Below, piece after piece: positions 1 through 34,556 of a stretch of 35,346 nucleotides of DNA. The stretch is taken from the NCBI GenBank assembly GCA_900128565.1, contig LT635945.1:1-35346 (forward strand). The letters run 5' to 3'. Every line of letters begins with the position of its first letter. Positions within the stretch are counted from its first letter, which is position 1. The notes under the pieces are model-generated. The model had not been told where the DNA came from. It searched no databases and was given only the letters and a program-made list of their open reading frames with translations. Source of the DNA: Stramenopiles sp. TOSAG23-6 (taxonomy: Eukaryota). A program made the translations under genes and the position numbers.

Positions 1-1
1 A

Positions 2-3000
2 CTGAAGTGTGCTGATGGTTTCAGTATAACAGGTAAAACACCATCTTGTTTTGCTGGTCTTTTCGACCCTGGATGGGCTGCATGTATTCCAAGTCCAACA
101 GTGTTACCTCCAAAGGTTGAGACCGAATTTGGTACAGGTGTTGAAGTTCCTAAAACATTCATTGGGGGTGAAATCATCGATCATGGCACAACAGGCGATT
201 TAAGTTGTAGTAAAGGTTTATCTTTGTCAGGGAAACAACCATTTGCTAAAAACGGAAAATTTGATCCTGGAACGATTAAATGTACTTCACCAGGGGCAAA
301 TGATTGTACCGTTCTGAATACTTTAGAGGTGCCTGAATATGGTATTTCTGGTATTGGTTGTATGACTGGTAAAGTTTTGCAACACAATGCAACATGTAAT
401 TTTACTTGTAATGAAGGATACACTTTACAAGGTGAACAACCCAAATGCGCGAATACTAAAATTAGTTTAGGTTCGATAACTTGCACTCCTAACAGCTGTG
501 AAGTTCTTGGTCTTGAAATATCGAACACTAGAACGAATAAGTTTAGCGATTGTTCTAATGGTATGACGATCGCTGACGGCCATGAATGCAATGTTTCCTG
601 TAAGACTGGATATTCTCTAGTGGGTCGAAAACCTTCATGTAATGCCGGAAAGTTTGACATAGGGACTACTACATGTGTACCCGACAGTTGTTTGGTAACA
701 GGTGTACCAACTGTGCAGTCCGGTGACATTGGTAGTGACATTTTCTATAAAACACAACATAGTGTTACCGCTGATGCTAGCGTGGCTAAATATGTGCCAA
801 TTTGTTTTAATGGAATGAGACTTGAGCATGGTCATTTCTGTGCAATTCGGTGTAAAAGTGGATATTCTCATACTGGAAAAAATCCCAGTTGCCATAATGG
901 TACATTTGATCTTGGATGGAAAGTATGTACTCCATCTAATTGCGTTGTGCCTGATAGTATTACAGCTCCTACGAACAGTGACGGTATACCAAGCAACTGC
1001 AAAGCAGCTGCTGTTATGAAACATGGTGATCAGTGTAAGTTCAGTTGTAAAACAAATTTTGTAATATCTGGGGTACCACCAAAATGTCTGTTTGGAAAAT
1101 TTTCTACTGGTAGTGTTAAATGTACAACAGAAGAAAAACAGTACTGCACTGCAAATAATATAAATATACCTACAAATGGTTTCATCGGAAGCAGATGCTC
1201 TAACGGCAAACTCGTGGCGCATGATACGCGTTGTAATATTGGATGTAGTGCCGGGTATGAGTTAGTGGGACAGCAACCTACGTGCTTCAACACAAAGATG
1301 ACACTGGGTTCGCTAAAATGTCAACCAAAAAGATGCGTTGTTCTCGGTCTCTCTCTACCCCATAATATTGAAAACCTTCCTGGTGCATGCGTGAATGGTG
1401 CATCCATCAAAAGTGGTAGTTCGTGTACTTTAATTTGCAAAAAAGGTTATAAAACTGTTGGAGAACAGCCACATTGTTATAATGGCAAGTTTCACGTAGG
1501 ATCTACAAAATGTGTACCTCTAAATTGTGTTATAGATACTTTAAGACAACCTGATAATGGTAAAACACCATCAGAAAATTGTAGTATAGGTGCATACATA
1601 TCACATAATTCACACACATGCAATATTCAATGTAAAAAGGGATATGAGATCAAAGGAGAGCAAGCATCATGTAAATATGGAAAATTTAACCCTGGATGGG
1701 CTACATGTGAACCTCAATCGTGTGTAATCTCAAAGTATGAGTATCTAGGCTGTTTTGCAGATACTAGTGTTCGTGATCTTTCACATCGCGCCATTGGTGC
1801 TGACAAAAAAGTACTCAATGGAGCTAACCGAGAGTCATGTGTGAATGCGTGTATAAGTATGGGCTTTACATATGCCGGGACCCAGTGGTATGGAGAATGT
1901 TGGTGTGGAAATCAATACGGGAAATATGGTGAGAAACCGATTGAAGAATGTAGAACACCTTGCAAAGGGGGTGCAAAAGGTGAAATGTGCGGAGGTGGAT
2001 GGCGTAACTCCATATACAAAGTTCGGGTTCTCCAGAGCCTCGAGAATGGCAATGAAATTCCGAAGGAATGCGCCAACGGTTCACGACTAAAGCATGGCAG
2101 TACTTGTAGTATGAAGTGTAACCCAGGATATGTAATCTCTGGGAACCTTCCATCTTGTTCTTTTGGGGTGTTTGACATAGGAAGTCTCAAGTGTGATATA
2201 AAACAAAGTAATAATATTTGCACTGTTGGGAAAGTTGTTGCGCCAAAGAATGGATATATAGGCCCACTTTGTAAAAAAGACAATTTACTTAAATTAGGAG
2301 AGTCATGTCAAATACGTTGTCAAGATGGCTATAATTTAATAGGAGAACAACCTAAATGTGTTGATACAAACGGTACTTTTGGTGTAACTGTTGGATCTGT
2401 GTCGTGTGTTCCAAAGTCATGCAAAATTAATGGTTTGCAAATACCCAAAAATGGAAATGATATTCCGGGTGATTGCTCAAATGGTTCAAACATTCAACAC
2501 AATAAATCATGCAAGCTTACTTGTACTGATGGCTATACACCAGTTGGAAAGCAACCACATTGTAATGCTGGCAAATTTCATTTTGGAAGCATTAAGTGTG
2601 AACCTAACAGTTGTGCAATTGTTGGGCTAGAATTACCAGACAATTCGACAAATGCTTGGATTACCAAGGGATCGTACTATACTGATGCAACGACTAATGA
2701 TAGACAATGTACTGATGGTGCTATACTTGAACATGGTTCGCGTTGTAGGATAACTTGTAAATCTGGTTATTCTCCAATTGGAGAGGCACCGTATTGCTCT
2801 GCGGGAACATTTCATCCTGGATGGACAATTTGTCAACCACACTCATGTAAAATTCCGGATACTTTCACTGCTCCCCAAAATACAGAAGCTCTGACGTCTG
2901 AATGTACTCCTGGTGTATCTCTCCTTGAGCACGGTGGTGATTGCAAAATAAAATGTAAAGCCAACTTTATTGCATCTGGGAAGCCACCTTCTTGTTCCCT

Positions 3001-6000
3001 TGGCGTCTTTAGTCCTGGCACTATGCAGTGTACACCAGTACAATCTAACGACGGAAGTTGCCTGACCATAGGAAGACGTGCTAGGTATATACGAATTACC
3101 AGTGATAGTCGCTTACATTGCGACAAAGGGTCCGACTGTACGTGGCATGTTCACGATGTTTCGTTTTTAGAAAACTCAACGCCTTTGTCAGGTGTTACAG
3201 CACATAAATGGGCATTTCAAGATGGTAGTCACACTGGTGCTCACATGTTGGATGGAAACAAAACAACCTATTGGGCGCCATTACTAACCGATTGTGGAGA
3301 CACTTGCACTGAATATGGTTCCCAGTGGATTATATTAGACTTCGGCTCCGTCAAAAGGTTTGATAAATGGAAATTTAAACATGATACTTCAACCATAAAA
3401 AATTCAGTAGATCGCATAATTTTTGAAACATCTGAAGATCTTGCATCTTGGTCGAAACCACTTTACTTGAATGTAAATGTTTTAGGCGAGACACAATTTT
3501 CTTTGCCTAGTTTGATTAATGTTCCAGATAATGGTTCAATTGGAACTGTTTGTGGCGATGGACAAACAGTGAAAAAGGATTCGACTTGTTCGTTAGAATG
3601 CGACGCTGGATACTCAATTAGAGGAGAACAACCTCTGTGTGGAAACAATAATGCGTTAAGTAGTGGATCGATTACATGTGTACCGAATAGCTGTATGATC
3701 AAAGGAATAAAACAAATTAAGAACGCGGATCCGTTGCCAGGTAATTGTCGTAATGGAGCTGAATTATTTCATGGAAGAAGTTGTTCAATAAGTTGCGCCG
3801 AGGGCTTTCAATTGTCCGGTAAGCAGCCATGGTGTGATAAAGGTAATTTTCATATGGGTACAATTACTTGTGAACCCCGCAAGTGTATAGTTAAAGGCTT
3901 GAAAACTCCGGCTAATGCGATGCCTCTGCCTAATACTTGTAAAACTGGATCAAAATTGTCACATGGTGATACATGTGAGATATTATGTAATGCGGGGTAT
4001 GAAGTGAAAGGTGAGAAGCCATCGTGCTACCAAGGAAAATTTGATCCTGGATGGATTGAGTGTGTACCCAAAGCTTGTGAAGTTAATTCATCTAAATATA
4101 TAGGTTGTTACAAAGATTCCCCCAATCGTGATCTTAAATATTGGGCCAAAGATTCAAACAATACGGTTTTGCGTCGATCCAATAAAGAAACTTGTGATGA
4201 AGCTTGCAGAGTATTAGGTTATAAATATGCTGGAACACAATGGTATGGAGAATGTTGGTGCGGAAACAAATATGGAAAACATGGCAAGGTATCAGACTCA
4301 GAATGTAATACACCGTGTAAAGGAGGCCCAAAAGGTGAAAATTGTGGAGGCGGATATCGCAATTCCATTTATGAAATCGCGATGTCTTTCCCTGTAAATA
4401 GTGGTGTAATAATTCCTTCAACGTGTAGTATTAGTTCCAAATTAAGTAACAACGAAATGTGTAATCTCACTTGTTTATCGGATGAAGTTCTTTCTGGAAA
4501 ACAGCCTTCGTGTTCTCTTGGTGTATTTGACCCCGGGACAGTGACATGTACCAAGCAGCAAGCTAATGATAAAAGTTGTACAATTGACAGTATTGATCTT
4601 CCCCCAGGTGCTGTAGTTGGACCTATATGTACTAAAGGAAATAAATTAGCTGATTCATCTTCGTGTAGTATAGTTTGTGAAAAAGGAATGAATCTTATAG
4701 GGGATCAACCTAAATGTACAAATGGTGTCATGAGCAAAGGATCACTGAAGTGTGAATTTGCAAAGTGTACTGTTATTGGCATGAGCGTACCTCTCAATGG
4801 TTCTATTTTACCAGGATCGTGTACGAATGGCTCAATAATTGAAGATGAGCATGTTTGTAATATAACATGCAAAGATGGTTATTCACCTTCCGGTATAAAA
4901 CCCTACTGTGCTGAGGGTGAATTTCATAGAGGTTCAGTGACATGCGAACCTGATAATTGTACAATAGTAGGCTTAAAGCAACCGATTAATGGGTTTAAAT
5001 TACCTCCTCGTTGTAAAAATGGGGAATATTTGAAGCACGGAGAATCTTGCCAACTTGAATGTATGGAAGGTTATGATGTACACGGCAATCAGCCAAGTTG
5101 TAGCAAAGGGAAGTTTAACCCTGGTTGGATCAAGTGCACCCCGAAGTTTTGTATTATATCGGATTCGGAGTACATCGGATGTTTTAAAGACAAAATTACG
5201 CGCGATCTTTCATTTCAAGTTAAATCTTTAAAATTGGTTAATACGGAAACTTGTGTGAAAGCATGTAAAGACGCCGGTTATAAATTTGCTGGCACTCAAT
5301 GGTATGGACAATGCTTCTGTGATAATAACTATGGAGATTATGGTGAAGCAGATGAAAAGAAATGTAGTACTAGGTGTAGATCTGGTTCAAACGGGGAAAT
5401 GTGTGGAGGTTCATGGCACAACTCCGTTTATAAAATATTCGAGATTAAAGCTCCAGCGAATGCAAATCCTGTTCCAACAGAATGTAGCAAAGGAAAAGTT
5501 CTGAAACACGGAGAAAAGTGCCCAATGACTTGTAAATCAGGGTTTGCTTTGTCAGGAAAGTTTCCATCGTGTAAGTTTGGTATTATTGATAAAGGAGATA
5601 TTACTTGCACTCAAAAGGTTTCGACAGATTGTACTATTAGCGCCGTAGAACCACTTCTTGAGGGGATTCAAAGTGCGAGTTGCCAAGTTGGATCATTTCT
5701 TGCCGACAAAGAAACTTGTAAATATAAGTGTAAAAGTGGATATACATTACAAGGAGACGCTCCAAAATGTACAAATGCAGTAATGAGTGCTGGAACTTTA
5801 AAATGTGAACCTGATTCGTGTAAAGTATCAAGTATAGTTGTACCTAAATACGGGAAGAATATTCCAGCATCATGCTCTCCAGGTTCGATACTTAAACACG
5901 ATGAAAAATGTCATATTCAATGTAGCGAAGGCTATGCTATATCTGGTATATTACCATATTGTGAAGCTGGAAGATTCCGGCCTGGTTCTTTTAGCTGTGT

Positions 6001-9000
6001 TCCCAAGGATTGTATTGTGACTGGTTTAACATCGCCAAATGGAAAGCCTTTACCCAAGAGTTGTAGTATAGGGGCAACACTGGCTCATGGTCAAGAATGC
6101 AACTTACAATGTAAATCTGGATATTCAACAAAAGGTGTTCAACCTCATTGTGAGGCAGGTAAATTTGACCCAGGTTGGATAAAATGCGAGCCATTGTCGT
6201 GCAAGGTACCTAGTAACTTTACTGTGCCTGCAAATACAAATGAGCTTCCGAGCAATTGTCTTCCAGGTGCCATAATAAATCATGGAGATGTATGTCATTT
6301 GACTTGTAAAAATAATTTTGCTCTTTCAGGCGATCAACCCAGCTGTTCATTTGGAGAATTTTTAAATATTAATGGCATCTCATGCAACACAAAGGTTTCC
6401 CAAGGGAATAAAAAAGATTGTGTTGTCAATATGGGATCCAACGGATCGTATGAGGAAATCCCGGGTGGTTTTAGAACTGCAACTTGTACCGATGGTAATA
6501 TATTAGGAATGAACCAGTCATGTGAAATCGAATGTGAAACTGGGTATACACTTGTTGGAAATCTACCATACTGTAATGATGGTACTATCACTGAACGTTC
6601 TGTAGAATGTGTTCCTAATTCATGTACAGTGTTTGGATTGTATCCACCCATGTATGGTATGGAAATCCCCGGATATTGCAAAACTGGGGCTACACTTCAT
6701 AGCGGTCAGAAATGCGAACTTCATTGTCAGGAGGGTTATGAAATATCTGGGGACCAACCTTCTTGTGAAAACGGCGAATTTAATATTGGGACAATTTCGT
6801 GTGTTCCAAAACCGTGTACTGTAGCAGGTCTTCTCCCATTAGATAATGGGGAATACATGGATCCATGCACTGTTGGGGATAATTTGTCACACGGAGATGA
6901 ATGTAATATAGAATGTTTCAGTGGCTATACACTGCAGGGCAAGGTCCCACAATGTCTATATGGAGAAATGTATCCTGGATGGCCCCGTTGCTCTCCTGAT
7001 CAATGCACAGTAAATGAAACATTTGAGAAACCTGCAAATACCATCGATTTGCCAAACAGTTGTAATCCTGCATTTTGTGGGTCGTCTGCTTTCCCTTGTC
7101 CTATTGGTACACGTGTTATTGCAAAATGGCCTGCGTACGAAGATTTGGAGGATAACCCTTGGTTTGCTGGTACAGTGATTGCTCAGTCGATTATAGATAA
7201 TGAGACCATGTTTCAAATTGAGTTTGTGGATGGGGACTCTGATGAAGTTCATGCACTCGATGTCATACATTGTCCACACCGTGATGATGATTGGGGGAAA
7301 GGGGAAAAGCGTGGAAACCATTTGAGGCCTGATGGATGCAATGCATCTATCCCTGATGGAATGAATTGTGAAATTCAATGTAGTGTTGACTACGCCATTT
7401 CAGGGACACAGCCAAAGTGTAATGCCGGGCTATTAGATGAAGGTGATATTGTATGTCATCAGTATAAATCGAATATAGATTGCAAGGTTACAGCTAATGA
7501 TTGTGTATATGAAAACGGATACCGGTTTAGTAGTGTTGGCGACGAAAAAGAATATGATGGTACAGGTGTTGAAATCCCCGGGAAAAGTGACCATGAAAGC
7601 TGTTCCAAAGGTGTTCTGGCAGATTATCCATCAGCATACGGAGCAACATTTACGGCTACAAAAAAATGTTATGCTGAATTGAGTATTGATATTCCTAGTA
7701 ATCCAAATGCAAGAGGTGTGAAAACTCAACCCACATTTGCGTGGGAGACTTGCATATTCAGTTCTCCAGTTGTAGAACCTGAAAATGGCTTTCTTGGTAA
7801 ATCATGTAAGAACGGGTCGATAATAAAAGATGGCGCGTCGTGTGATGTAAATTGTGATGAAGGTTATTCACTTGAAGGGCAGATGCCTCTATGTACCAAA
7901 GGAAGCTTAGATCCTGGATCTGTCTTATGTGTTCCAAATGGATGTGAAGTAAATGGTCTGGAAAAAATGATACGTGGAAGCTTTTCAGAAAACTGTGCTA
8001 ATGGCTCTCGAATATTAGACGGTGAGGTGTGTGAATTATCGTGCCCAGAAGGATTTGAACCTTCTGGGGATGAACCATATTGTTCTGCGGGTGTTTTTGT
8101 TGCTAATACCATGTCATGCGAGCCTATGAGTTGTATGATACATGGTATTGATGAACCAGAGAATGGCTTTACAAATTGTACTAATGGTGACACTCTAGGG
8201 AACGGGGAAATGTGTGAAGTGGAATGTAATGTTGGTTTTCATTTAGAGGGCGAGCTAGGTTCTTGTTATGATGGAAACTTTGATCCTGGTTGGTCTACTT
8301 GCTCACCTGATGACTGCACTATATCCTCATCTGAGTATATTGGTTGTTTCAGGGATAGTGGGAAACGAGATTTGCCATATAGAATGAAAAAGAATGGCCA
8401 ATACATAAAGAATGCAGACTCTGAACAATGTATTCGTTTATGTGATTTGGCTGGCTATGCTTATGCTGGAACACAATTTTTTGGAGAATGCTGGTGTGGA
8501 AATGATTTTGGCAGATATGGTGAATCTCCAGATGATGAATGCAGTACTGAATGCAAATCAGGTCAAAATGGAGAAATGTGTGGGGGTGTGTGGCGAAATT
8601 CTGTATACTCAATTGGATTTATGGATTCTATTGTAACTCCTGATTCAAATTTAATAATACCCGAAGACTGCGTTGATGGTGCTATTCTGGCACACGGACA
8701 GGAATGCAAGATGAAATGCAAGGATAATTATTCTCTTTCTGGTAAGTTGCCTTCCTGTTCTTATGGTCATATTTATATGGGTGATCCAGTGTGTACAGCA
8801 AAAGCATCTCAAGATTGTGATGTGATGAAAACTGTAACAGGAATGAGTGATACATTTTGCAAATATTACGATGGCAAAGGAACTAATATTCAGCATAAAA
8901 ATCTGAACATTCATGTTGAAACTATAGATAAATGCGTAGATGAAGCCCGCAAAAAATATCCAGATGCAATTGGGTCAAGCTTTAAGCATAAAAATAATCA

Positions 9001-12000: not shown

Positions 12001-15000
12001 TTGCGTGAATGGGTCAACAATTCCCCATCTTGGATCATGTAAAATAACTTGTCAAGAAGGGTATAAAGTAACTGGAAATCAACCATCATGTGAAGCAGGA
12101 AAATTCTCAATCGGATCTATCACGTGCGAGCCTAAAAACTGTACTGTGGTAGGAGTTAAGCAACCTATACATAGTGAAAAACTTCCAAAGGCTTGCATGA
12201 AAGGCGCATCTCTTGCTCACGGTTCTACAAATTGTAAAATTACATGTGCTAAAGGATACACAGTAAAAGGCTTACAACCATCGTGCAAAACTGGTATTTT
12301 TGATCCTGGTTGGGTACAATGTGAGCCCAGCTCATGTGAAATATACGAATCGAGGTATCTTGGTTGTTATGTTGATAAGGGTCAGCGAGATCTCAAATAT
12401 TGGGCGAAAGATTCAAACAATAGAAAAATGTCGCGAGCAAATAGAGAAACTTGTGTAGAAGCTTGCAGAAAATTAGGTTATAAGTATGCCGGGACACAGT
12501 GGTATGGTCAATGCTTCTGTGATAATAATTATGGAGACTACGGAAAGAAAGATGACAAGGAGTGTAAGACACCTTGTAGTGCTGGACCAAAGGGGGAAAT
12601 GTGCGGAGGTGGATGGCGTAACTCTGTATACTCTATAGGTACTTTAGTGAAGCCAGCTAATGCTGCGGACATACCGGATAGATGTACACCAGGTTCCATT
12701 ATTGGTCACGGGGAGACGTGTAAATTGACATGCCTTGCTGACTTTGCATTGACAGGGAAACAACCAACTTGTATCCTAGGCGAGTTACAATCTGGTAGCA
12801 TTTCATGTGTCGCACGCACCGACAAAGACTGCAAAATTGCTAGTGAGATACCTGTCCCGGCAAATGGTAAAATTAGCCCATCATGTAAACTTGGATCTTC
12901 ACTGAAACACCTTCAACAATGTAATTACACATGTAATGATGGATATGTATTCAAAGGCGACCATCCTAGATGCAATAATAGCAAAATTGATTTTGGAAAC
13001 TCAAGTACAATAAAAATGAAAACGCCAAATAGGTACAACTATCAGAAGGTCAATAGCATTGAAGGTATGACAAATTTGAAATTTTCGGTCATAGCAAAAA
13101 ATGACGCCCATATTGCATTAAGTGAAAAAGACACACATAATAGCCCAAAGTATGAAATCGTTATCGGGGGCTGGGGAGGGTCAAAATCTGTAATACGAAC
13201 AAGAAATCAGGGTGGGCAAGTAAGTCAAAGTCACGCCAAGCCATTTTTGGATAAAAACAGCGCGAAAGATTTTTGGATATCATGGGATAATGGCGAATTA
13301 AAAGTTGGACGTGGTTCTACGTTAGGCACTGGTACATTTATGTCTGCTAACTTGGATATCAAAAAAGAAATTAAATTTGTGCTTGTAGCTACTGGATGGG
13401 GAGCAACAGGTACCTGGAATTTCAATTTTGCTTCTTCAAAATGTCTACCCACTGGATGTTTTAGCATGGGAATTGATAAAACTACCAAGAATGCTTTAGA
13501 TATTCCAGGTGAATGTGCTGCAGGGTCATGGTTACCTAATGGCACTAAGTGTGACATTAAGTGCAAATACGGTTATACTGCTTCGGGTACGATGCCTTAT
13601 TGTGAGGCAGGTTTATTTAATATTGGATCGTTTAGTTGTGAACCAGAAGACTGTATTGTAACATCTTTAAAGAAACCAAAGAATGGCGCAGAGTTATCAA
13701 AAAGCTGTCGTAGTGGCGCATTATTTAGACATGGTTCTTCTGATTGCAAAATTACATGTGCTGATGGATATACCATTGTTGGCGAACAACCATCATGTAA
13801 TGCAGGTAAATTTTATCAGGGGTGGGTAAAATGTGAGCCCAGCCCATGCGAAATACAGGAATCAAAATATCTTGGGTGTTATGTTGATAAGGGTCAGCGA
13901 GATCTCAAATATTGGGCGAAAGATTCAAAGAATAGAAACATGTCGCAAGCAAATAGAGAAACTTGTGTAGAAGCTTGCAGAAAATTAGGTTATAAGTATG
14001 CCGGGACACAGTGGTATGGTCAATGCTTCTGTGATAATAATTATGGAGACTACGGAAAGAAAGATGACAAGGAATGTAAGACACCTTGTAGAGCTGGACC
14101 TAAAGGGGAAATGTGCGGAGGTGGATGGCGTAACTCTGTATACTCTATAGCTTCTTTAGAGAAGCCAACAAATGGATCTGAAATTCCTATCGCATGCGCT
14201 TCAGGCGCACAAATCTCTCACGGGGAAAATTGTGGATTGACTTGTAATCCAGGGTATATTCTGACTGGTGTTCAACCATCATGTTCTTTTGGAGTTTTTG
14301 ATATAGGCTCGATTGTATGTGAAAAGGTGATTGCACAGAAGGTTTGTAAAGTACCCGATCCATCTACAAGTATTATCGACATTCCAAATGGAAAATTATT
14401 TGGAGCTTGTGCTGAAAAAGGAGCAGATATTCCATTAGATGAAACTTGTAAGTTCAAGTGTGCTGATGGATACTCTGTTTCTGGTGACGCTCCAGCATGC
14501 AAAGAAACAAGTAGTGGGGTATACAAATTTGTCCTCTCGGGTACTCTCCAGTGTAAACCAAATAACTGCATAGTTGAAGGGTTGGATACCCCACAAAATG
14601 GAAAGATCCCTGGTTATTGTGCAGAGGGAATGACTCTAGAACATGATAAAGTATGTAGACTAGCCTGTTCTTATGGATATAAAATATCAGGAAATCAACC
14701 AAAGTGTTTTGCAGGAGTTTTCAATCCAGGTAGTATAACATGCGAACCNAAGGATTGTGTTGTCTCATCGATGGTAAGCACTACAGTAATGCCANTCGCA
14801 ACTGTTTCAAGCTCAAGCGGTTCATTATTTTCTCCATTTCATCCTGGAATTCNTCGGCCNATTATTGATATAAAGTGTGAAACTGGCCGCATCCTCTCTC
14901 ATAGCAGCAGTTGCCATCTTACTTGTCCTGAAGGAACGACTATTTCCGGTGAACAACCTTCGTGCTATGCTGGCACTTTTAATCCTGGGTGGATACAGTG

Positions 15001-21000: not shown

Positions 21001-24000
21001 TGCATTGGGTACTGTATATTATCCCATGAACAGAGAGACATGTGTTAATGTGTGTCGAGATAAGGGTTATAAGTATGCCGGAACACAATGGTATGGTGAA
21101 TGTTGGTGCGACAATACAATTGGTAAATATGGCAAGATTGGCGAAGAAATGTGTAATACACCTTGTAAAATTGACAGCACAAAATCTGAAATATGTGGAG
21201 GTGGATGGGCAAATTCAGTATATGAAATTCTTCCTAGTGTTGTAACTATACCTCAAAATGCTAAGCCAGTACCAGATTCTTGTAACGTTGGTTCAATACT
21301 ACAACATGGGGAGGAATGTAAAATAGAATGCGAAGATGGTTATGCTTTATCAGGCACTCATCCTGTTTGTTTTGCAGGACAACTAAAATTTGGCACTATT
21401 ACTTGTACACAAATTGAAAATTCAAAGGACTGCAAAATCCCGGAAATACTACCTGAAAAAGCCCCTGTCAGTATCATAAATTACGAGTTCGACAATAATT
21501 TAATTGATTCCGGTTTAATGAATATGAATCTAAAGGTCGAAGAGGGTAGTGTAAGCTACAANAATGGAGGTTTATATCTAGATGGATCAACCCGGCTTTC
21601 ATCTGAAGCCATGGTACCATACACGTTGGTTGAAAAAAGCATTGAAGCTTGGATTCAGCTNGATGCAGTAGGTGGCCAAAGTGGCTCATCTCCCCTTGCT
21701 ATCATGACTGCTGGATCGCAATTAGAATTTGATGCTATTGTCTGGGGTGATTCACAGCTAAATACTTGGATGGCTGGTAGTCAAGGTAATTTACGNACAA
21801 AAGGGATTTGTGCGTCTCCTGGTGCTTCGTGTTCTATTTCTGAAACTAGCACGAGTGTGGCAAATCCTGTACATATTGTTATTGTTTATCCTTCTGATCG
21901 AGTAAAAAGTACTGGATCAGGAGTTAAAGCCGATGGGTCGGCTGATGTAATTACAGAGGTTTCTATCTACCGAAATGGTATTTTTGCTGGAACGTATACA
22001 ACAGATGCTCCATTCTTGGAATACACTGAAGCTAGTCTATGGCACACAAGTCTTGGTACAAACTTTAAAAGCGGTGCACCTGTTGCATCATGNGCAAATT
22101 CAAGTTGTTTTAAAGGGGTAATTTTTCGAGCTGCTATCTATGATACAGCATTGACAACAGAAAATGTGAAATTACTTTATCATCAGGGTCGCGATTACTA
22201 TGCAGCGAAGTTCTATATGCCAAAAAATGCGAAAATTGATACAAATAAATGTAAAGTTGGAAGTACTATCAAACACGGAGAACGATGCCCAGTAAAATGT
22301 AGCAATGGCTTCTCTGTAATAGCACCTATAGTCGTGACAAATAGTATCAAACATGATATACAGTTTACGTGGGCGGTTGAAGAAGACGCTTGGATTGATC
22401 GATCATACATATGGAATAACCTCGGTTCATTTTCTCCTCGCAATTTTGATATACACGTAATGACAAGTGTAGATAATCGAGGAGCATATTATTCCTTAAA
22501 TTGTGATGATGCAGGCGGGTGTGAGATATGGATTATCACAGAAGCGACAGATAAGAATGTTGAAAGATCATGGGGTGGTGAATGGGCTCATGTTGAAGCA
22601 TCAAATGCTGGGAATACGCCATGTGGTGGCATAAAAGCAACTGCAAATGGTCACTTTATGCAATACTCTTATGGGAGTAAATTTGAAAATTTAACCAATA
22701 CCTTGTGTAAAGATGGTGTGTGTAATTATGATGAATGTTACTACCAGAAAATTTATCCCGGGTTGAATGCGATTATACCGTCATCAGCTGGTGGCCTTAA
22801 CAAAGGTGGCAAACTCGAAATATTTATCCGCTCAGGAATTACTTCGACTTGTATGAATGGTAAAATCAGCCGATCTCTTCTTGAATGTGCTCCTGCTTCA
22901 TGCATTGTGAAAAGTCTTCAAAAACTTAAACACGGAATATCACTTCCAGGAAAATGTGTAAATGGTGAAATATTGGAATCTGGAGAATCATGTAAGCTAA
23001 GTTGTAATGAAGGGTACGAGGCAACTGGAACACAGCCATCTTGTAATAATGGTATCTTTTCAACTGGATCGATTACATGCGAGCCGATGGAGTGCATTGT
23101 AAATGATATGTTTAAACCGACAAATGCAGAAAATCTCCCAACTGAATGTACGAATGGTTCTATTTTAAATCATGGATCGGAATGTATTATTTTATGTCGA
23201 GAAGGATATAGCGCAATAGGCAAACAGCCATCATGTTTTGCTGGTGTGTTTGACACTGGTTGGGTAATTTGTGAACCAGATCCATGTGTAATTGACAACT
23301 CCAATTACATTGGATGTTTCCGTGACACAGGTGTCCGAGATTTGTCTGTGGTGGCCAAGGATGGCAATGGTGTGCGGTTATTAAACTCAAATAAAAAAAC
23401 GTGTGTTAAAGCATGTCTAGATGCTGGTTTTAAATACGCCGGGACACAGTGGCATGGAGAATGCTGGTGTGATAATAGTTATGGGGAATTTGGGCAAGTA
23501 AAAGATGAGGAGTGCAATACGCCTTGTAAGAATGGCCCTACAGGAGAGATGTGTGGAGGTGGGTGGCGTAATTCTGTATATGAAGTTTCTGCTATCACTG
23601 CACCAGCTAATGCGGAACCACTATCATCCGATTGTACTGTAGGCGCAACTTTAAAACATGGCGAAATATGTAAGATGAAGTGCAAGGCGGGGTTTTCAAT
23701 TTCTGGTTCGCATCCTAGATGTCTAGCAGGTAAAATTGAACCAGGTACTATTACATGTGCACAAGGCCAAAGCTCGGACTGTACACTAACTTCATCACCA
23801 ATTCCATCGACTCAATTGAATAATGCAATCTCAACTTGTGATAGCAATATGAAACTTGCGGATAATGGAAAATGTTGGATATTTTGCAAGCCTGGCTATC
23901 ATCATAAGACAGATTCAATTGCTACAGCATACTCGTTGGTTGGTGCAGGGTGTTGTGCTGGTAGTGCCTCACAGGACTTTCAAGAAATAGTAGACATAAA

Positions 24001-27000: not shown

Positions 27001-30000
27001 TTCTGCCGGGACAGTTACATGTACAAAAATAAGTTCATCATCGTCTTGTGTATCAACTTTAATTACAGTAGTAAATGGAGTTGTAAGTAGTGCTTGTAGT
27101 CCTGGATCTCTCTTGGCGAAAAGCGCAAATACCACATGCGGTGTCAAGTGTGACCCAAATTATAAACTATCAGGCACACTGCCTGTATGTTCATCTAGTG
27201 GTTTTAACCTTGGTAATCCAGAATGTAAACCTAATGATTGCTTGGTCAATGGAATCATTAAAGATATTAATGGAGAAGAAATTCCACCAATGTGCTATGA
27301 GGGAGCTACACTACCTGACGGCGAATCTTGCGATTTGGCGTGTAAAAAAGGATTCACTGTTAAAGGAGAACAACCAATGTGTGATGGGGGTGCTTTCTCG
27401 CCAGGTTCAGTAACTTGTAAACCGAATGACTGTACTGTGGTTGGAATGCCTCTTGTTGATTTTTCAGATGGTTGGATAGCTTTAGGTGGTGGTGAATGCA
27501 AGAATGGGTACACTTTGAATCATTCATCAATTTGTTCATTGAAATGCATGGTAGGATATTCACCAAAAGGCCAGGGGCCTTGGTGTTCCTCGGGTAGTTT
27601 TGAAACTGGTTGGGCATTCTGTGAAGCTGATTCATGCACTGTTGACGAGGAACTAACTGCTGAAACTTCTGTTTTAAGTAGACGCCGTCTTGAAGAAAAC
27701 GCTCTACAAATACATCCAATGTTCAGTAATGGTAGTCGACGTCTCTCAAAAGATGTGTCTAGTGTTCAAAAATGCCACACTGGTGATGTTGTCGCACACG
27801 GTGAAGCATGCGCAATGACATGCCCACCAAATTATGCTTTGCAAGGAGAATACACACATTGCACTTGTGGTTTGTGGAGTGTCAGTTCAGTGACTTGTTC
27901 GTTATATGATAAAGCTGTTGATTGTATTATTGACAATAGTAAATTAAATTCATTACCTACGGGGGGTCTTCCCGACTCAGGTTGTTCAGATGGATTTTTA
28001 CTCAAGGATGGCTCCACATGTCACTTTGGCTGTAAGAAAGGTTACACAGTTACAGGTACACAGCCAACTTGTAATAAAGGAACAATGAATCTTGGAAATG
28101 TTTCATGTAAAGCTACGGGTTGTATTGTATCTGGTATGCAAGCGCCACTTAATGGAGATAAGCTTCCTGGTGCATGTTCTAACGGTCAACTTATTGAAGA
28201 TGGAAAATCGTGTTCACTTTCTTGTCTCCCAGGGTATGATATATCGGGAGCTCAGCCATCTTGTAGTTCCGGGAAATTTTCAAAAGGGACTGCAACGTGT
28301 GCTCCAAAAAATTGTACTGTTGCTGGATTGACTAAACCTACCAATGGTAAGTCTATCCCTTCTTCATGCAGTAATGGAAAGACTATCACACATGGAAGCA
28401 GCTGTAATCTTTCATGTTTAGATGCATATAATCTCAGTGGGAAACAACCATCGTGTAAAGCTGGTGTATTTGATCCAGGATGGGTAACATGTTCTCCAAA
28501 AGATTGTACAATACCCCAAAATTTTGTGATTCCAACAAACGTTCAAGGTACTTGCACCCCAGGTGGAAATTTATCTCATGGTGCCACGTGTAACTTATCA
28601 TGTAAAACGGATAAAGAGTATGCGTTTTCTGGCACACGGCCGTCATGTAATGCAGCAACTTTCAGTGCAGGAAATGTGGCATGTGCAGTGAAACAATCTG
28701 ATGATTGTAAAGTGAAACAAGGTGAAATTTCAACTCCATCGAATGGTTCACTCGCACCAGCGTGTAATGTTGGTCAAATATTAAAATTTGATTCTGAAGC
28801 AGAAGATTGTGTGAAATGTAATCAAGGGTATAAACTTTCGAACTCATTCGTTCAACCAAAATGTGGAAACAGTGGATCTATCGTTTATTCTCCGCCAACC
28901 ACAGTGTGTATTCCTGATGCATGTATTATAACAAATATGATTCCTCCTCAAAATGGAAAGGCACTTCCATCTGCTTGTACAAATGGGAAAACACTCAATC
29001 ATGGTAGTTCGTGTTTGATAGAGTGTGCTACTGGATATTCATTGGTTGGCAATCAGCCATCATGTTCAGCCGGCGCATTTAGTATCGGTTCAATTTACTG
29101 TAAACCGAAAAAGTGTACAATTAGTGGAATAGTACAGCCAACAAATGGCGCGTCACTTACTGGTGTTTGTGAAAATGGTCAATTTCTGGCACATGGACAC
29201 TCATGTGGTATCAAATGTAATCAAGGATATGATTTCAGTGGAAAACAACCATCTTGTAATGCAGGGGTATTTGATAAAGGTTGGTTTATTTGTAAACCAA
29301 AGGACTGTACAATACTACCAATGAATGTACCAACAAATGGTGCCCCACTACCAGATAATTGTAAAATCAACAAAGTTCTTAAACATGGACAAAAATGTGT
29401 TTTGACATGCCTGCCCAACTATTCGTTATCTGGCACGCTACCTTCTTGTTTGGCAGGTACATTTAGTCCAGGTAGTGTAAAATGCTTATCTACTGACAAT
29501 GCAAAGGATTGTCGAGTGAACAATATCTCACTATGTACCCCTGTTTCCAAAAATGGGGTTCTTGTTAAGAGTGGCACAAGCTGTGATCGTCGATGTGATG
29601 AAGGGTATACAGTAACTGGAACAAACCCATCTTGTACTAACGGCAATTTGACAAATACTGGTAAGGTATCATGTGTTGCAAATACTTGTATTGTAGCAGG
29701 GATGAAGACACTGGAAAATGGAGCAAGCCTTCCAGTAGATTGTACCAATGGAAAAATATTAGCAAATGGTGCCAAGTGTAGTCTTACATGCAATTCAGGA
29801 TATTCTCCGTCAGGTGAACAACCTTCATGTGACAAAGGAGTATTTAAGATTGGATCAGTTACTTGTGCGCCAAATAGTTGTACTGTTTCTAATTTGTCAA
29901 AACCTACAAATGGAAGCGATATTCCAACATATTGTACGAATGGAAAAGATATTGTTCATGGAAGTAGTTGTAAACTGACATGCGAGACTGGTTACTCAGT

Positions 30001-33000
30001 TTCCGGAAATCAACCATCTTGTAATCTTGGCAATTTCACTTCGGGTAATGTCTCTTGTTCTCCAAATAAATGTACTGTACCAGGTTCATATAGTGTTCCA
30101 CTAGATGCCGTGAAAAAAGGCGACCAAAGTTGTTCATCGGGAGAATCTATGAATCATGGTTCACAATGTTTATTTACTTGCAACGCACCGCATACTCTTA
30201 AAGGTACAAATCCATCATGTTCTGCAGGAAAATTTAACCCCGGTAGTACATTTTGTCATTGTACTGTAGTGGACATAAAAGCACCTCTAAATGGTTCAAT
30301 TGGCTCTTGCATAAAAGGATCGAATGTGAGTAAATGTGATTTGAAGTGTAATCTAGGGTATACATTATCCGGAACACAACCGGTATGTATAGAAAATTCG
30401 GTTGCAGCAAACAATTCGGACCCTGTAAAGTGTACAAAAGTTCCATGTCCGAACAATACCATTGGTTTGGGTGGAGGTTCCCCGTGCACGTGTCCATCTA
30501 AGCACTCTGGGGGTTTTACCTTGGGAAGTAGTAGTAATGCATATGATGTAGGCAGCCAATGTCAGTTGATCAGTTGTCCTGCTAATAGTGCATTTAATAA
30601 TGATAAATCAGAATGCCTTTGTAATTCACCATACAAGGGAACAATAATGTATTCTGAAACAAAGAAAAAATATGAGGGCGAATGTAAAATTGAATGTCCG
30701 TCGCTATCCAAAGGTAGCGGTAATGGAAGTACGTGCTCGTGTGTATCTGGATATACTGGAACAGTCACATGGACTTCAAGTAATAAGACATATTGTACTA
30801 CCTGTTGTCATAAGGTAGCATGTCCCAGTCATAGTGAAGGAGATGGGGCTGGAAAAGAATGTCTCTGCAAGCAAGGTTATACAGGTACAGTTCCGTTTAA
30901 TACAGGCCAAAATAAGTATACTGGAGCTTGTAATAAAGTTACTTGTCCAACAAATAGCACTAAAAATGATAATGGACCATGCACGTCATGCGAGCCTGGT
31001 TACACTGGAACGATTCAATTTAACAATAGCAGTAGAACATATATGGGTACATGTACTCGGATCAACTGCCCATTATATTCTACAAGAAGTGGAAATCAAA
31101 ATGTCTGTGTTTGCGATAAAGGTTATACTGGAAATATTACATTTCTTTCTGATAAAAATGAATATTCTGGGAAATGTACAGCTGTGGCTTGCCCGGCAAA
31201 TTCTGGTGGCCCTGGCGCCAAAGACGGATGTCAATGTTTGAGTGGTTACGATGGAGAAAACCCAAAATTTAATGAAAGTGGCAATGCATACTCAACTGGT
31301 ACATGTACAGCGGTTGCATGTGTTACAAACAGCTCAGGTACCGGAAACTGCAAATGTAACAAAGGGTATGGGGGAAATATGAAATTTGATCTCTCAAGCC
31401 GAAAGTATACTGGTGCATGTAATGCGCTATCCTGTCCCAACAATAGTACGGGAAATGGCAAAGGTGAAAGTTGTACATGTGATTTAGGTTTTAGTGGAAC
31501 AATTAGTTTTTCAGATGATAAAAATACTTATGAAGGTAAATGTGTGAGTATCCCTTGTCCATCCAATAGCACAGGTAATGGTCAAGGTGGTACTTGTACA
31601 TGTAATCCCGGTTTTTCTGGAAACGCCACATTTTTGTCCAATACAAACAAATATGAAGATGATTGTAAAAGCATTCCTTGTCCAGTCAATACAGTAGGTG
31701 CAGGTGGTGGTAAGAATAATTGCATTGTTGTAGATGGACATAAAGGAACTGTCGTGTTTTCTGCAAAAAATAATAAATACGAATCATCATTGTCAGTAGT
31801 AGCTTGCCCAGTAGGTAGTTCAAAAACAACAAATGTTTGTTCATGTTCTACTGGTTATTATGGCAACCTTGTTTTCGACAAAGAAACATCATCATACACA
31901 GGCATTTGCACTAAAATCCAGTGCCCCAAAGATAGCACTGGTTCAGGTGGTGGAAATGAATGCAAATGTATTTCCGGGTATTCTGGAACTATTACGTTTG
32001 ATACAAAATTAAATGTATATCAAGGATCGTGTAAAGATGATTCTAAATGTCCTTTAAGAAGTGCAGCCGATGAATCTTCATCCCCCCCTCGCAAATGCTA
32101 CTGTCACCAAGGTTACTCTGGCACAATCTCTTTTGATACGACAAGCAAAAAGTATGTGGGGGTATGTACCCCAGTAAATTGTCCTGCTCATAGTTTGCGA
32201 GATCCACCTTTGCCATTAGGATCGCGAAGAAACTTAGAGGCTAATGATGTGTACGGTGCCCAATCCGCTGCTAATGTACCATATGGCTGTGTCTGTAAAG
32301 CAGGGTGGAATTTCGGCAGTAAACATGGAATAACTTGGTCAAAGACGAGTCAAGTTTTCGTTGGTGAATGCTCACCAAAACCTTCTGAGGAGGACGGTCT
32401 TGTGGCCATACTCTGGATACTTCTTGGTGGTTCTATCGTTGCTGCTTTATTTCTTGGTGCACGGTATGCCCAAAAAATAATGAAACCTAGCATAGCCGCA
32501 AAACGTAAAAAGAGAAAATCGAAAAAGACAAAGGGTAAGGTTGCACCATTGGAAACTTTGGACAATAAAGAAGGTAGTAAACCAGGTATCAGTGATTACA
32601 CAGGCCTGGGAAATACTTTACTCAACGAAGAGAAAACTAATGATGGATATGGGTATTATGATTATTCAAATTCAGATGACTATAGCGATGGTTCTGAAGG
32701 TTTTTGGATGGATATGGATGATGGATACAGTACAGATGAATATTACACCGATGGCTCCTTTGATTCAGATGATAGCGATTTTTTTGCGCAAATGGAAAAT
32801 AGAGCAAAAAATAATCTATTAAAAAAGGAGGAAGCCGCAACAATAATACAAGCAAGAGAAAGGGCCAATCAAGCCCAGAATGATTTTATAGTAAAAAAAG
32901 AGAGTGCAATTCAAGTACAATCTCTTGCCAGAGGTTCCAATGCACGCAAACCTCTGAAAAACTATAGTGATGATGATGTAATTGCTTTACCAAAAGAACC

Positions 33001-33193: not shown

Positions 33194-33352
33194 GCAAAAT
33201 CAAATAAAAATGTATTTTAACAAAAAAAAATTCGTTTGATTTTTTTCTTTTTAATTGTAAACATTATTTTAAAGAATATTTTTGTTTTTCACTATTTTTT
33301 AAATAAAAAGAATATTTTCATACAACATTTCTATGCAAATGAATGGCGAAGC
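33194..33352. terminator. 159-bp AT-rich convergent intergenic/3'UTR region with candidate poly(A) signals
   Basis: AATAAA at 33203-33208 and 33302-33307 on +, with T-rich tracts, between two convergent stop codons. AATAAA is weak evidence in DNA this AT-rich. Confidence 0.35.
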
Positions 33353-34272: not shown

Positions 34273-34556
34273 TTATATTGTTGTTTGCAACGTGCTTGTG
34301 ACTGTCTAAAAATATTCGCCGTGGAGAATAAGGAGATTAGACAACAATTTCAGATACTTTCAATTTTGAAATCCAAATTCGAATTAAATCACCGAAACGA
34401 AAATTTCTTCCGAAAGTTTAGAACAAACCTGCTTTGCTGTGCAAATTCGGCGGTTTTTATTGCTTTGACTTCTATTACACCTACGTACAAGTCTGGTATC
34501 AACGGGTAAGTATCAAATTAGCAAGTAAAGATACAACTTACAATTCATACAATAAA
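34273..34556. promoter_or_regulatory. 284-bp divergent intergenic region, probable bidirectional promoter
   Basis: Lies between head-to-head ATGs at 34272(-) and 34557(+). No specific element identified. Confidence 0.45.

What the first reader, a model, noticed from the sequence alone, without database searches (positions are those of the whole stretch)
2..33193. At least 33.2 kb without an intron: >11,000-aa membrane protein, still incomplete
Seen: the frame is open from the window edge in mid-repeat with no signal peptide, so the protein is longer than shown (>1.1 MDa from length alone). The neighbouring gene has a spliceosomal intron, so the host can splice, yet this exon exceeds 33 kb. 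With about 107 modules at 6 Cys each, several hundred disulfides must form. Established: human CR1 has about 30 CCP modules, so this array is several times longer.
Basis: partly seen in the sequence, partly recalled or inferred. Interest (0 to 1): 0.75.

Follow-up and report, generated by a model that had tools for sequence, protein, structure and literature searches.

The report
Giant sushi-repeat surface protein gene
An uncultured marine protist carries an uninterrupted reading frame of at least 33 kb that encodes a membrane-anchored surface protein of more than 11,000 residues, built mostly from about 108 sushi-like modules, and the gene is real, variable in wild populations and present in ocean RNA libraries.

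Summary
Frame 2..33193 (+) is open for 11,063 codons, while the other five frames carry 334-1207 stops. It enters the window in mid-module, so the N-terminus is missing.

The product is about 1.18 MDa with 850 Cys:
- 108 self-HMM modules of 64-68 aa, usually with 6 Cys. They are divergent CCP/sushi modules by PDB profile, AlphaFold and Foldseek.
- 12 WSC domains, 3 Methyltransf_FA-like domains, one F5/8C domain, one LamG-like domain and other inserts.
- About 13-16 juxtamembrane 41-aa Cys repeats, one TM helix and a 244-aa tail.

An independent seawater metagenome contig matches 18279-32939 with 35 substitutions and no gaps. RNA-library contigs from two studies are colinear with the ORF and show no joint inside it. 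A 92-nt intron is spliced out of the neighbouring gene.

A 7,735-aa relative has the same domain order.

Caveats:
- Of the 26 single Ns, five could hide stops.
- The first 17.6 kb has no independent assembly support.
- Repeats of 85-89% identity lie at 9.6-14.2 kb.

Function (adhesion or sensing) is inferred. I rate it a new variant of a known kind, interest 0.6.

The parts
2..33193 (+). Open reading frame, 11,063 codons plus stop (TGA at 33191-33193). It is 5'-open at the window edge.
   Evidence: Codon-usage frame preference is kept in 367 of 367 windows of 180 nt. The lowest 90-nt GC is 0.26, against 0.17 for the neighbour's intron.
2..30442 (+). Ectodomain mosaic: 108 divergent CCP/sushi-like modules (64-68 aa, mostly 6 Cys). 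The first is truncated by the window edge (2-97) and the last lies at 30254-30442. Other domains are interspersed.
   Evidence: self-HMM census, Cys counts, alignment A1, PDB profile, AlphaFold pLDDT 95.1, Foldseek hits to CCP-containing entries, Pfam Sushi 24.0 bits on aa 1227-1358
1721..2002 (+). WSC domain 1 of 12. The others are at 4076-4360, 5150-5416, 8315-8596, 9650-9934, 10139-10405, 10997-11272, 12335-12616, 13847-14128, 20924-21211, 23285-23566 and 25742-26080 (this last one divergent).
   Evidence: Pfam PF01822 scores 354.7 and 112.1 bits in 9+3 stretches. The 12 inter-module segments cluster together.
3044..3487 (+). F5/8 type C (discoidin) domain
   Evidence: Pfam PF00754, 35.1 bits against a cut-off of 28.2 when scanned alone
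13016..13444 (+). Methyltransf_FA-like domain 1 of 3. The others are at 17210-17623 and 18026-18481.
   Evidence: Pfam PF12248, 98.4 and 184.7 bits in 1+2 stretches; cluster of 3
7004..7297 (+). About 100-aa Tudor/SH3-barrel-like insert, 1 of 3. The others are at 15014-15304 and 16100-16414.
   Evidence: cluster of 3. Only weak Pfam Tudor hits, below cut-off. A counterpart lies in P0001 at 2371-2466.
7469..7738 (+). Cys-containing inserts of about 50-105 aa that look PAN/apple-like by eye. Further ones are at 8807-9064, 11477-11746, 23915-24073 and 24461-24775.
   Evidence: Pfam PAN_1 reaches only E 0.22 for 24461-24775, so the assignment is weak.
21419..22186 (+). Concanavalin A-like / Laminin_G_3-like domain
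   Evidence: Pfam PF13385, 25.2 bits, just below the cut-off of 27.6. It matches P0001 4049-4250.
22325..22888 (+). 188-aa domain of no known family
   Evidence: no Pfam hit at E<=1. It is conserved in P0001 at 4331-4466.
30443..32398 (+). Juxtamembrane stalk of 41-aa, 4-Cys repeats (CPxNSxGxGxGxxCxCxxGYxGTxxFxxxxNxYxGxC). Thirteen clean copies lie at 30575-32179.
   Evidence: There is no Pfam family. 289 proteins share the region at E<=1e-3, with best identity 44%.
32399..32458 (+). Single transmembrane helix (aa 10800-10819), followed by KRKKRKSKK
   Evidence: aligned with the TM of P0001
32459..33190 (+). 244-aa cytoplasmic tail. It holds an acidic Tyr/Phe-rich cluster, an IQ-like motif (32900-32950), a 33-nt tandem repeat coding PKEPKPER (33000-33072) and a terminal FTKAEFISFYGGLKEWENA motif.
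   Evidence: IQ scores 18.6 bits against a cut-off of 20.3. Tandem repeat. Acidic part conserved in P0001.
33356..34272 (-). Neighbouring gene: signal/TM-like start, His-rich and acidic region, Cys-rich C-terminus, with one 92-nt intron (33500-33591, placement ambiguous by 5 nt)
   Evidence: RNA-library contig X6 record 15 joins 33499 to 33592. The spliced frame runs on to a stop.

Best explanation
This is a real, expressed, nuclear gene of an uncultured marine protist. Its last 33.2 kb, at least, form a single coding exon.

It encodes the C-terminal 11,063 residues of a type I membrane glycoprotein. The parts, from outside the cell to inside, are:
- A very long extracellular rod of about 108 divergent, three-disulfide CCP/sushi-like modules.
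- Interspersed ligand-binding-type domains: 12 WSC, one discoidin, one ConA/LamG-like, three Methyltransf_FA-like, and Tudor-barrel-like and PAN-like inserts.
- A stalk of 41-aa Cys repeats.
- One TM helix.
- A 244-aa cytoplasmic tail with conserved acidic motifs and an IQ-like motif.

Inferred mechanism: the CCP array acts as a semi-rigid spacer. It holds many carbohydrate- and protein-binding heads up to a few hundred nanometres from the membrane (about 3.5-4 nm per CCP is recalled, not measured here). There they bind glycans on prey, particles or mates. The tail couples the molecule to cytoplasmic partners.

Shown: the frame, domain content, topology elements, independent assembly of 14.7 kb, presence in RNA libraries, and conservation of the architecture in a second organism. 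Inferred: surface exposure, disulfide pairing, extended length and the adhesion/recognition role.
For: Frame: 1 stop in 11,064 codons against 334-1207 in the other frames.

Coding signal along the whole length:
- 0 of 367 windows lose the frame preference, and there is no AT-rich island like the 17% GC intron or the 18% GC intergenic DNA.
- Differences between in-frame paralogous repeats in the 5' half are enriched at third codon positions: 21 of 41, 27 of 48 and 31 of 57.
- 16 of the 26 N fall at third positions.

Population variation: of the 36 single-base differences listed in the ORF, 21 are synonymous, 15 are non-synonymous and none is a stop.

Independent assembly: the X3 contig of 14,661 nt equals window 18279-32939, with 35 substitutions and 0 gaps.

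RNA libraries:
- Contigs from X6 and X8 (poly(A), study P3) and X7 (study P4) are colinear with the ORF.
- The listed pieces cover 7,627 nt, which is 68% of 21897-33193.
- No RNA joint lies inside the ORF, whereas the neighbour's 92-nt intron is skipped in X6.

Domains.

Topology: a single hydrophobic window followed by a basic cluster.

Conservation:
- P0001 (7,735 aa, 81 modules) has the unique anchors in the same order. These are F5/8C, the Tudor-like insert, LamG-like, the unknown 188-aa domain, a PAN-like insert and the divergent WSC.
- P0001 also has a homologous TM and tail.
Against: - No experiment or localisation exists; the function is inferred from domain types only.
- The N-terminus and signal peptide lie outside the window, so type I topology is incomplete.
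- Five N-containing codons could be stops.
- Three WSC-containing copies at 9566-9953, 12218-12662 and 13730-14174 are 85-89% identical, with exact runs of 105-158 nt. Order or copy number there could be mis-assembled.
- RNA libraries can carry DNA, as the tool itself warns. Transcription of the giant ORF is therefore probable, not proven.
- Only 5 of 66 single modules reach Pfam Sushi at E<=0.01, and Foldseek E-values are weak (>=0.075).
Confidence: 0.7

Rival explanations
1. The length is inflated by assembly. The source assembly (small DNA libraries, coded X1/X2) may have joined or mis-ordered paralogous repeat blocks. The true gene would then be shorter, or would be two or more genes.
For: - 26 ambiguous single N lie between 9856 and 22093.
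- Repeats of 85-89% identity, with exact runs up to 158 nt that end at an N, lie at 9.6-14.2 kb.
- The X3 contigs break at 18279-18304, beside a 79.6% identical repeat.
- Positions 1-17671 were never compared with an independent assembly.
Against: - An independent contig covers 18279-32939 without a gap.
- Outside 9.6-14.2 kb, DNA repeats are at most 80% identical.
- The frame and its codon preference never break.
- The relative P0001 is itself 7,735 aa with colinear anchors.
- A mis-join between in-frame repeats would change the module count but not the giant nature of the gene.
Confidence: 0.1
2. The frame is interrupted in the living cell. A stop may be hidden under an N, or in-frame introns may be removed. 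The products would then be smaller than 11,063 aa.
For: Five N codons could be stops. RNA contigs cover only parts of 21.9-33.2 kb and nothing upstream was laid.
Against: - At three of the five codons, paralogous copies or the module consensus give a sense residue: Y in NNYGDYGKKDD, S in QPSC and the module-final Cys.
- The frame stays open for thousands of codons beyond each N.
- No RNA joint lies inside the ORF.
- No intron-like AT-rich segment exists.
- The S/T-rich or acidic inserts inside modules have counterparts in the protein P0001.
Confidence: 0.07
3. The protein is the same, but its role is structural rather than adhesive. It would be shed or assembled into a pericellular coat, scale or hair layer, with the CCP/WSC array as a matrix component.
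For: It has huge size, hundreds of disulfides, lectin-type domains and S/T-rich inserts that suit glycosylation. Sushi proteins of oomycete zoospores are secreted at attachment (PMC3869178, passages read).
Against: A conserved TM and a conserved cytoplasmic tail argue for a membrane-tethered molecule with cytoplasmic partners. I noticed no recognisable cleavage module next to the membrane in the sequence, though I did not test this further.
Confidence: 0.2
4. The protein is the same, but it acts mainly as a mechanosensor or surface-stress sensor, like yeast Wsc1 or polycystin-1. WSC heads on a long spring would signal through the tail.
For: There are 12 WSC domains, a single TM, a conserved tail and an IQ-like motif at 18.6 bits.
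Against: The IQ motif is below the Pfam cut-off. There is no GAIN/GPS, PLAT or channel part. The array is far longer and more heterogeneous than in the known sensors (recalled).
Confidence: 0.12

Closest known systems
P0001 (EukProt gene model g1215.t1, 7,735 aa, organism not named by the tools)
   Same: It has the same module type (81 matches to my module HMM) and WSC, Methyltransf_FA, F5/8C and Sushi Pfam hits. The unique anchors lie in the same order, and it has a homologous TM plus acidic tail.
   Different: Local identity is about 35%, or 30-57% per domain. P0001 is shorter by at least 3,300 aa and has one C-terminal Cys repeat instead of 13-16. It lacks the IQ/PKEPKPER/YGG..EW tail extension, and its model also starts in mid-module.
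Complement receptor 1, factor H and other vertebrate regulators of complement activation (CCP/sushi arrays)
   Same: Both are tandem arrays of about 60-aa beta-sandwich modules. They are the best PDB profile hits (CR1 1.3e-9, factor H 6.8e-7) and the best fold hits. CR1 is also a type I membrane protein (recalled).
   Different: - The window has 108 modules against 30 in CR1 and 20 in factor H (recalled).
- Its modules carry six Cys rather than four.
- The framework Trp is replaced by Phe in the consensus.
- The array is interrupted by WSC and other domains.
- It comes from a protist, so a complement role is not expected.
Selectin consensus repeats (six-Cys CCP variants; recalled, not tested here)
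   Same: They are CCP modules with a third disulfide that act as spacers holding a lectin head away from the membrane.
   Different: Selectins have 2-9 repeats and a C-type lectin head. I did not compare the positions of the extra Cys.
WSC-domain surface proteins: yeast Wsc1 cell-wall sensors, polycystin-1 (recalled)
   Same: A WSC domain sits on an extended extracellular stalk, with a single TM (Wsc1) and a signalling tail.
   Different: The window has 12 WSC copies and a stalk of folded Cys modules rather than a Ser/Thr-rich rod. It is more than 20 times larger.
Phytophthora zoospore adhesive proteins (PnCcp sushi protein; thrombospondin-repeat adhesin cited there)
   Same: These protist extracellular proteins are built from animal-type adhesion modules and are implicated in attachment (PMC3869178, passages read).
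   Different: PnCcp is a 10 kDa protein with one CCP module that is secreted from vesicles. The window's protein is membrane-anchored and more than 1.1 MDa.
Giant proteins in general (titin about 40,000 aa; bacterial giant surface proteins)
   Same: They share size class and repetitive modular build. Many giant bacterial proteins are surface adhesins (10.1101/2023.11.21.568195 and PMC12863079; passages and abstract listing).
   Different: Titin is intracellular and is encoded by hundreds of exons (recalled). The bacterial examples have no introns by nature. This one is a eukaryotic surface protein on one exon of at least 33 kb.

Membership tests
CCP / Sushi / SCR module (Pfam PF00084) | Tandem modules of about 60 residues | tested here: met
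   There are 108 matches of 64-68 aa, mostly head to tail.
CCP / Sushi / SCR module (Pfam PF00084) | Four framework Cys (paired 1-3, 2-4) | tested here: inconclusive
   Six Cys columns are invariant or at least 90% conserved. In the HMMER alignment to factor H, three of them align with factor H Cys residues (read by me as its 2nd, 3rd and 4th framework Cys), and two (columns 22 and 34) align to non-Cys residues, so they are the extra pair. Disulfide pairing could not be read from the tools.
CCP / Sushi / SCR module (Pfam PF00084) | Conserved Trp between the third and fourth Cys | tested here: not met
   The consensus is SCxxGxFxxGxxxC, with Phe in that place. Some modules have a Trp four residues later.
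CCP / Sushi / SCR module (Pfam PF00084) | Score above Pfam's gathering threshold | tested here: inconclusive
   A two-module piece scores 24.0 bits against 20.7. Only 5 of 66 single modules hit at E<=0.01, and Sushi is not listed for the 5,000-aa chunks. P0001 carries a precomputed PF00084 hit.
CCP / Sushi / SCR module (Pfam PF00084) | CCP beta-sandwich fold | tested here: met
   The AlphaFold model has pLDDT 95.1. The listed Foldseek PDB hits are entries that contain CCP-module proteins (factor H, C4BP, CD46, CD55, CR1, beta2-GPI, factor B, C6, PAPP-A, poxvirus B6), with TMq 0.34-0.62 and probability up to 1.00, but E>=0.075.
WSC domain (PF01822) | Pfam gathering threshold | tested here: met
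   Scores are 354.7 and 112.1 bits against 27.8, in 12 stretches.
Methyltransf_FA domain (PF12248) | Pfam gathering threshold | tested here: met
   Scores are 98.4 and 184.7 bits against 24.2, in 3 stretches. No enzymatic role is implied for an extracellular copy.
F5/8 type C (PF00754) | Pfam gathering threshold | tested here: met
   It scores 35.1 bits against 28.2 when scanned alone, and 26.7 bits inside the 5,000-aa chunk.
Laminin_G_3 / ConA-like (PF13385) | Pfam gathering threshold | tested here: not met
   It scores 25.2 bits against 27.6, E 2e-5. This is a likely relative, just below the cut-off.
EGF-like domain (for the 41-aa C-terminal repeats) | Six Cys, an EGF profile match over the whole domain, and the EGF fold | tested here: not met
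   Each repeat has four Cys. The PDB profile hits Notch EGF only over CxCxxGYxG, about 10 residues, with E 0.003. For the fold model (pLDDT 90.5), the best Foldseek E is 2.6, and an EMR2 EGF hit has probability 0.38.
Type I single-pass membrane protein | N-terminal signal peptide | not testable with these tools
   The N-terminus lies upstream of the window. No upstream sequence was found.
Type I single-pass membrane protein | One TM helix with a basic cytoplasmic flank | tested here: met
   There is a single hydrophobic window, aa 10797-10822, followed by KRKKRKSKK.
IQ calmodulin-binding motif (PF00612) | Pfam gathering threshold | tested here: not met
   It scores 18.6 bits against 20.3, E 0.0015. 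The stretch VQSLARGSNARK fits [FILV]QxxxRGxxxR by eye (pattern recalled).

The most novel reading that the evidence does not exclude
This is the longest CCP/sushi array so far described and one of the longest uninterrupted protein-coding exons of any eukaryote. It defines, with P0001, a family of megadalton CCP-WSC 'fishing-line' receptors. With these, small marine flagellates would reach several hundred nanometres beyond their surface, a sizeable fraction of their own cell diameter, to recognise and hold prey or particles.
Probability: 0.3. Interest if true: 0.75.

Novelty: new variant of a known kind. Interest (0 to 1): 0.6.

Why it matters
Small uncultured marine protists are major grazers, and how they recognise prey is poorly known. 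A preprint on marine protist single-cell genomes reports compact, intron-poor genomes and an enrichment of adhesion and sensing functions in heterotrophs (10.64898/2026.04.17.719054, passages read). It does not mention sushi, WSC or giant genes in its main text (0 occurrences); its supplements were not seen.

This gene has three useful properties:
- It offers a concrete and extreme candidate receptor. It is over 1.1 MDa, it is present in RNA libraries from two studies, and it shows mostly synonymous variation in wild populations.
- It shows that an organism that can splice keeps at least 33 kb of coding sequence free of introns.
- It extends the known range of the CCP module: about 108 copies, a third disulfide, and a non-animal host.

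It also warns that gene callers and protein databases miss such genes. No protein with at least 50% identity to its C-terminal 916 aa exists among 1.84 billion cluster representatives.

Tried and rejected
Extending upstream failed:
- No whole genome is held.
- A scan of metagenome contigs with the first 500 aa found 104 pattern matches, none of them a relative.
- A search for longer proteins with the first 600 aa gave only hits of 25-27% identity.
- The window's own protein is not in the 5,499-17,499-aa range of the protein collection.

Searches and folds that gave nothing usable:
- The ESM Atlas had no usable hit for the C-terminal 916 aa.
- The fold of the 41-aa repeat has no meaningful PDB match, and its PDB profile matches Notch EGF only over a 10-residue motif.
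- Alignment A2 of double repeats came out of register and was dropped in favour of A3.
- Pfam on 5,000-aa chunks did not list Sushi; smaller pieces were needed.

Read-laying results that I do not use as evidence:
- Depth in the RNA libraries is zero or low in bins 17.7-20.6 kb and rises towards 33 kb. The tool states that contig depth and uncovered parts cannot be interpreted.
- The DNA-run joints inside the ORF (21137>23549 and 23574>29813, sides 22-26 nt; 18337>17672) have short sides and lie at repeats. I treat them as cross-matches, not as deletion variants.
- The bin 33012-33601 has depth 25,832 in X3 because of an A/T-rich low-complexity stretch shared with other organisms.

Earlier notes of this scan gave nothing for this genome, for the words searched or for the sequence.

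Literature: searches returned no paper describing a giant CCP-WSC protein of protists in the held library.

In one search, the comparison 8452 vs 11125 is meaningless because that pair has gaps, and I ignore it.

Taxonomic placement of the host was not attempted beyond 'marine protist', because the tools gave coded names only.
Full report
**Observation**

The window holds one frame, 2..33193 on the + strand, that is open from the first base for 11,063 codons and ends with a single stop. Over the same span the other five frames carry 334 to 1207 stops, so the open frame is not a chance event.

The window has 26 isolated N, all between 9856 and 22093, which give 17 X in the translation. Sixteen of the 26 fall on third codon positions, as expected for ambiguous calls at polymorphic sites in coding DNA.

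Five N-containing codons could be stops, depending on the base: TAN 9856, NGA 15335, TNG 16008, TGN 17212 and TGN 22093. At three of them, paralogous copies or the module consensus indicate a sense residue:
- Tyr in the WSC motif NNYGDYGKKDD
- Ser in QPSC
- the module-final Cys

**What the frame encodes**

An HMM built from 48 of the protein's own repeats finds 108 modules of 64-68 aa. Of these, 104 score 27 bits or more. The first match covers only HMM positions 37-67, so the window begins in mid-module.

Of 80 full-length modules, 70 have six Cys. Sixty-six clean modules align with 26-55% identity to the first, and six Cys columns are invariant or at least 90% conserved.

Pfam finds, in the two 5,000-aa chunks:
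- 12 WSC stretches (354.7 and 112.1 bits)
- 3 Methyltransf_FA stretches

Scanned as separate pieces:
- An F5/8 type C domain scores 35.1 bits, above its cut-off.
- A Laminin_G_3-like domain scores 25.2 bits, just below its cut-off.
- An IQ motif in the tail scores 18.6 bits, below its cut-off.
- A two-module piece scores 24.0 bits on Sushi, above its cut-off of 20.7.

The inter-module segments cluster as follows:
- 12 WSC
- 3 Methyltransf_FA-like
- 3 Tudor-barrel-like
- 5 PAN-like inserts in all (two of them cluster as a pair, three are singletons)
- singletons: the discoidin domain, the LamG-like domain, a 188-aa domain of no known family, and short linker segments

The last 916 aa comprise about 13-16 repeats of a 41-aa, four-Cys unit. 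These are followed by the only strongly hydrophobic segment of the protein (aa 10797-10822; the next best window scores 1.43 against 2.65), then a basic cluster and a 244-aa tail. The calculated mass is 1,177,443 Da, with 850 Cys.

**Are the modules CCP/sushi?**

For:
- The profile of 66 modules hits 51 distinct PDB sequences at E<=1. All 51 carry names of CCP/sushi-containing proteins: complement regulators and receptors, poxvirus complement-control proteins, CSMD1, seizure 6-like, GABA-B R1 and factor XIII B. CR1 scores 1.3e-9 and factor H 6.8e-7.
- AlphaFold gives a confident model (pLDDT 95.1).
- The listed Foldseek hits are entries that contain CCP-module proteins. TMq reaches 0.62 and probability reaches 1.00, although E-values are weak (>=0.075), as is usual for a 67-residue query.

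Against simple membership:
- Only 5 of 66 single modules reach Pfam Sushi at E<=0.01.
- The framework Trp is Phe in the consensus.
- Two additional conserved Cys (columns 22 and 34) align to non-Cys residues of factor H.

I therefore call them divergent, three-disulfide CCP-like modules. The pairing of the extra Cys is inferred.

**Is the gene real and uninterrupted?**

Sequence evidence:
- Codon-usage preference for the frame holds in 367 of 367 windows of 180 nt.
- The lowest GC of any 90-nt window is 0.26 and lies inside recognisable domains. The neighbour's intron has 0.17 and the 3' flank 0.18.
- DNA repeats inside the gene are mostly below 80% identity.
- The exception is three WSC-containing copies at 9566-9953, 12218-12662 and 13730-14174. 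They are 85-89% identical with exact runs of 105-158 nt, and this is where a mis-assembly is most plausible.
- Differences between these in-frame copies are enriched at third positions: 21 of 41, 27 of 48 and 31 of 57.

Read evidence:
- The stretch 23001-33000 is held by two small DNA data sets that may be the source, by three seawater metagenomes of another study (0.72-0.91 of the sampled words), and by RNA libraries of several studies.
- I laid four runs on 17672-35346.
- The independent metagenome X3 gives one 14,661-nt contig equal to 18279-32939, with 35 substitutions and no gap.
- Contigs of the poly(A) libraries X6 and X8 (study P3) and of X7 (study P4) are colinear with the ORF. The listed pieces cover 7,627 nt, or 68% of 21897-33193.
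- No joint in any RNA run lies inside the ORF.
- In the same run X6, one contig skips 33500-33591 in the neighbouring minus-strand gene, and the spliced message keeps its frame to a stop. This serves as a positive control for splicing.
- Of the 36 listed single-base differences inside the ORF, 21 are synonymous, 15 are non-synonymous and none creates a stop.

Limits:
- RNA libraries may contain DNA, as the tool warns.
- Contig depth cannot be interpreted.

**Relatives**

Among proteins of 5,499-17,499 aa, the C-terminal 1,500 aa find a 7,735-aa EukProt model, P0001, with precomputed F5/8C, WSC, Methyltransf_FA and Sushi hits. They also find a 5,562-aa receptor-phosphatase-like protein that shares the Cys repeats.

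P0001 resembles the window's protein closely:
- It has 81 matches to my module HMM.
- Its unique anchors lie in the same order as in the window's protein:

| Anchor | Window protein (aa) | P0001 (aa) |
|---|---|---|
| F5/8C | 1015 | 1666 |
| Tudor-like | 2335 | 2377 |
| LamG-like | 7140 | 4049 |
| Unknown domain | 7442 | 4331 |
| PAN-like | 7972 | 4798 |
| Divergent WSC | 8581 | 5319 |

- Its TM and acidic tail align with the window's (E 4e-7), including DY.GL..TLL, FW and D.FF..M.
- Its model also begins in mid-module.

The C-terminal 916 aa have 289 relatives at E<=1e-3 among 1.84 billion cluster representatives, but none above 44% identity. So neither this protein nor a close relative is in that collection. 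The sources of the top hits carry no organism names.

**How it most likely works**

The following is inference from the domain types. A type I membrane glycoprotein uses its CCP array as a long, disulfide-stiffened spacer. At about 3.5-4 nm per CCP (recalled), 108 modules would span about 0.3-0.4 µm if extended.

Along this spacer sit 12 WSC domains, a discoidin domain, a ConA/LamG-like domain and other inserts. These would act as multivalent binding sites for glycans or proteins on prey, particles or partner cells.

The conserved tail, with its acidic aromatic cluster and IQ-like motif, would connect to cytoplasmic machinery.

The functional rivals are a structural coat or shed matrix protein and a Wsc1/polycystin-like mechanosensor. 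The structural rivals are assembly inflation in the 5' half and a hidden stop or in-frame intron.

**Comparison with the known, and novelty**

The protein resembles animal CCP-array receptors and lectin-on-a-stalk adhesins. It also resembles secreted sushi and thrombospondin-repeat adhesives of oomycete zoospores (PMC3869178, passages read).

It is not a plain member of PF00084 by the tests above. The combination and scale are not described in the papers found by searches:
- about 108 CCP-like modules
- 12 WSC domains
- 41-aa Cys repeats, a TM helix and the tail
- at least 33 kb on one exon

Giant proteins as such are known. Titin is about 40,000 aa, and bacterial giants exist (10.1101/2023.11.21.568195, passages read). 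I therefore rate it a new variant of a known kind, with interest 0.6.

Noticed in passing
window 33500-33596 (minus-strand gene 34272..33356): The only RNA-supported intron in the window (92 nt, one X6 contig) cannot be placed with GT..AG ends. Because of a 5-nt repeat (CATGT) at both junctions, it reads either GT..AT or AT..AC. It may be a rare AT-AC intron, or a strain difference at the 3' splice site.
   Followed up: partly
window 33356-34272, minus strand: The neighbouring gene encodes a protein of about 275 aa. It has a hydrophobic N-terminus, a His-rich stretch (HHHKKHTLKKHTHKHHH), an acidic KEADD repeat (15-nt tandem repeat at 34076-34117) and a Cys-rich C-terminal half that looks saposin-like by eye. 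There is no Pfam family at E<=0.001.
   Followed up: partly
window 34434-35346, plus strand: The downstream 3'-open gene has PDZ domains (37.1 bits). It contains two copies of a 300-nt unit at 95% identity spaced 435 nt apart. An X3 contig 'goes back 439' there, so the copy number of this tandem duplication may vary or be mis-assembled.
   Followed up: partly
window 33100-33190 (aa ~11034-11063 of the giant protein): The terminal motif EGASFTKAEFISFYGGLKEWENA matches 8 stretches of P0079, a 963-aa CCCH zinc-finger protein, and also matches P0111. It appears to be a short cytoplasmic module, with no Pfam family, that is shared by unrelated protist proteins.
   Followed up: partly
window 33012-33601: An A/T-rich low-complexity stretch attracts contigs of many other organisms (summed depth 25,832 in X3 and 5,621 in X6). 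It breaks the X3 assembly between 33528 and 33569.
   Followed up: no
window 9856-22093: All 26 ambiguous bases lie in the central third of the gene and none lies elsewhere in the window. One sits directly at the end of the longest exact repeat, 9698-9855. This suggests consensus conflicts between repeat copies or alleles.
   Followed up: partly
P0002 (5,562 aa, metaclust): A second giant protein shares the C-terminal Cys-repeat region (36% identity, E 3.9e-59). It carries tyrosine-phosphatase, fibronectin-III and GCC2_GCC3 Pfam hits. The 41-aa repeat stalk is therefore reused in other large receptor-like proteins.
   Followed up: no
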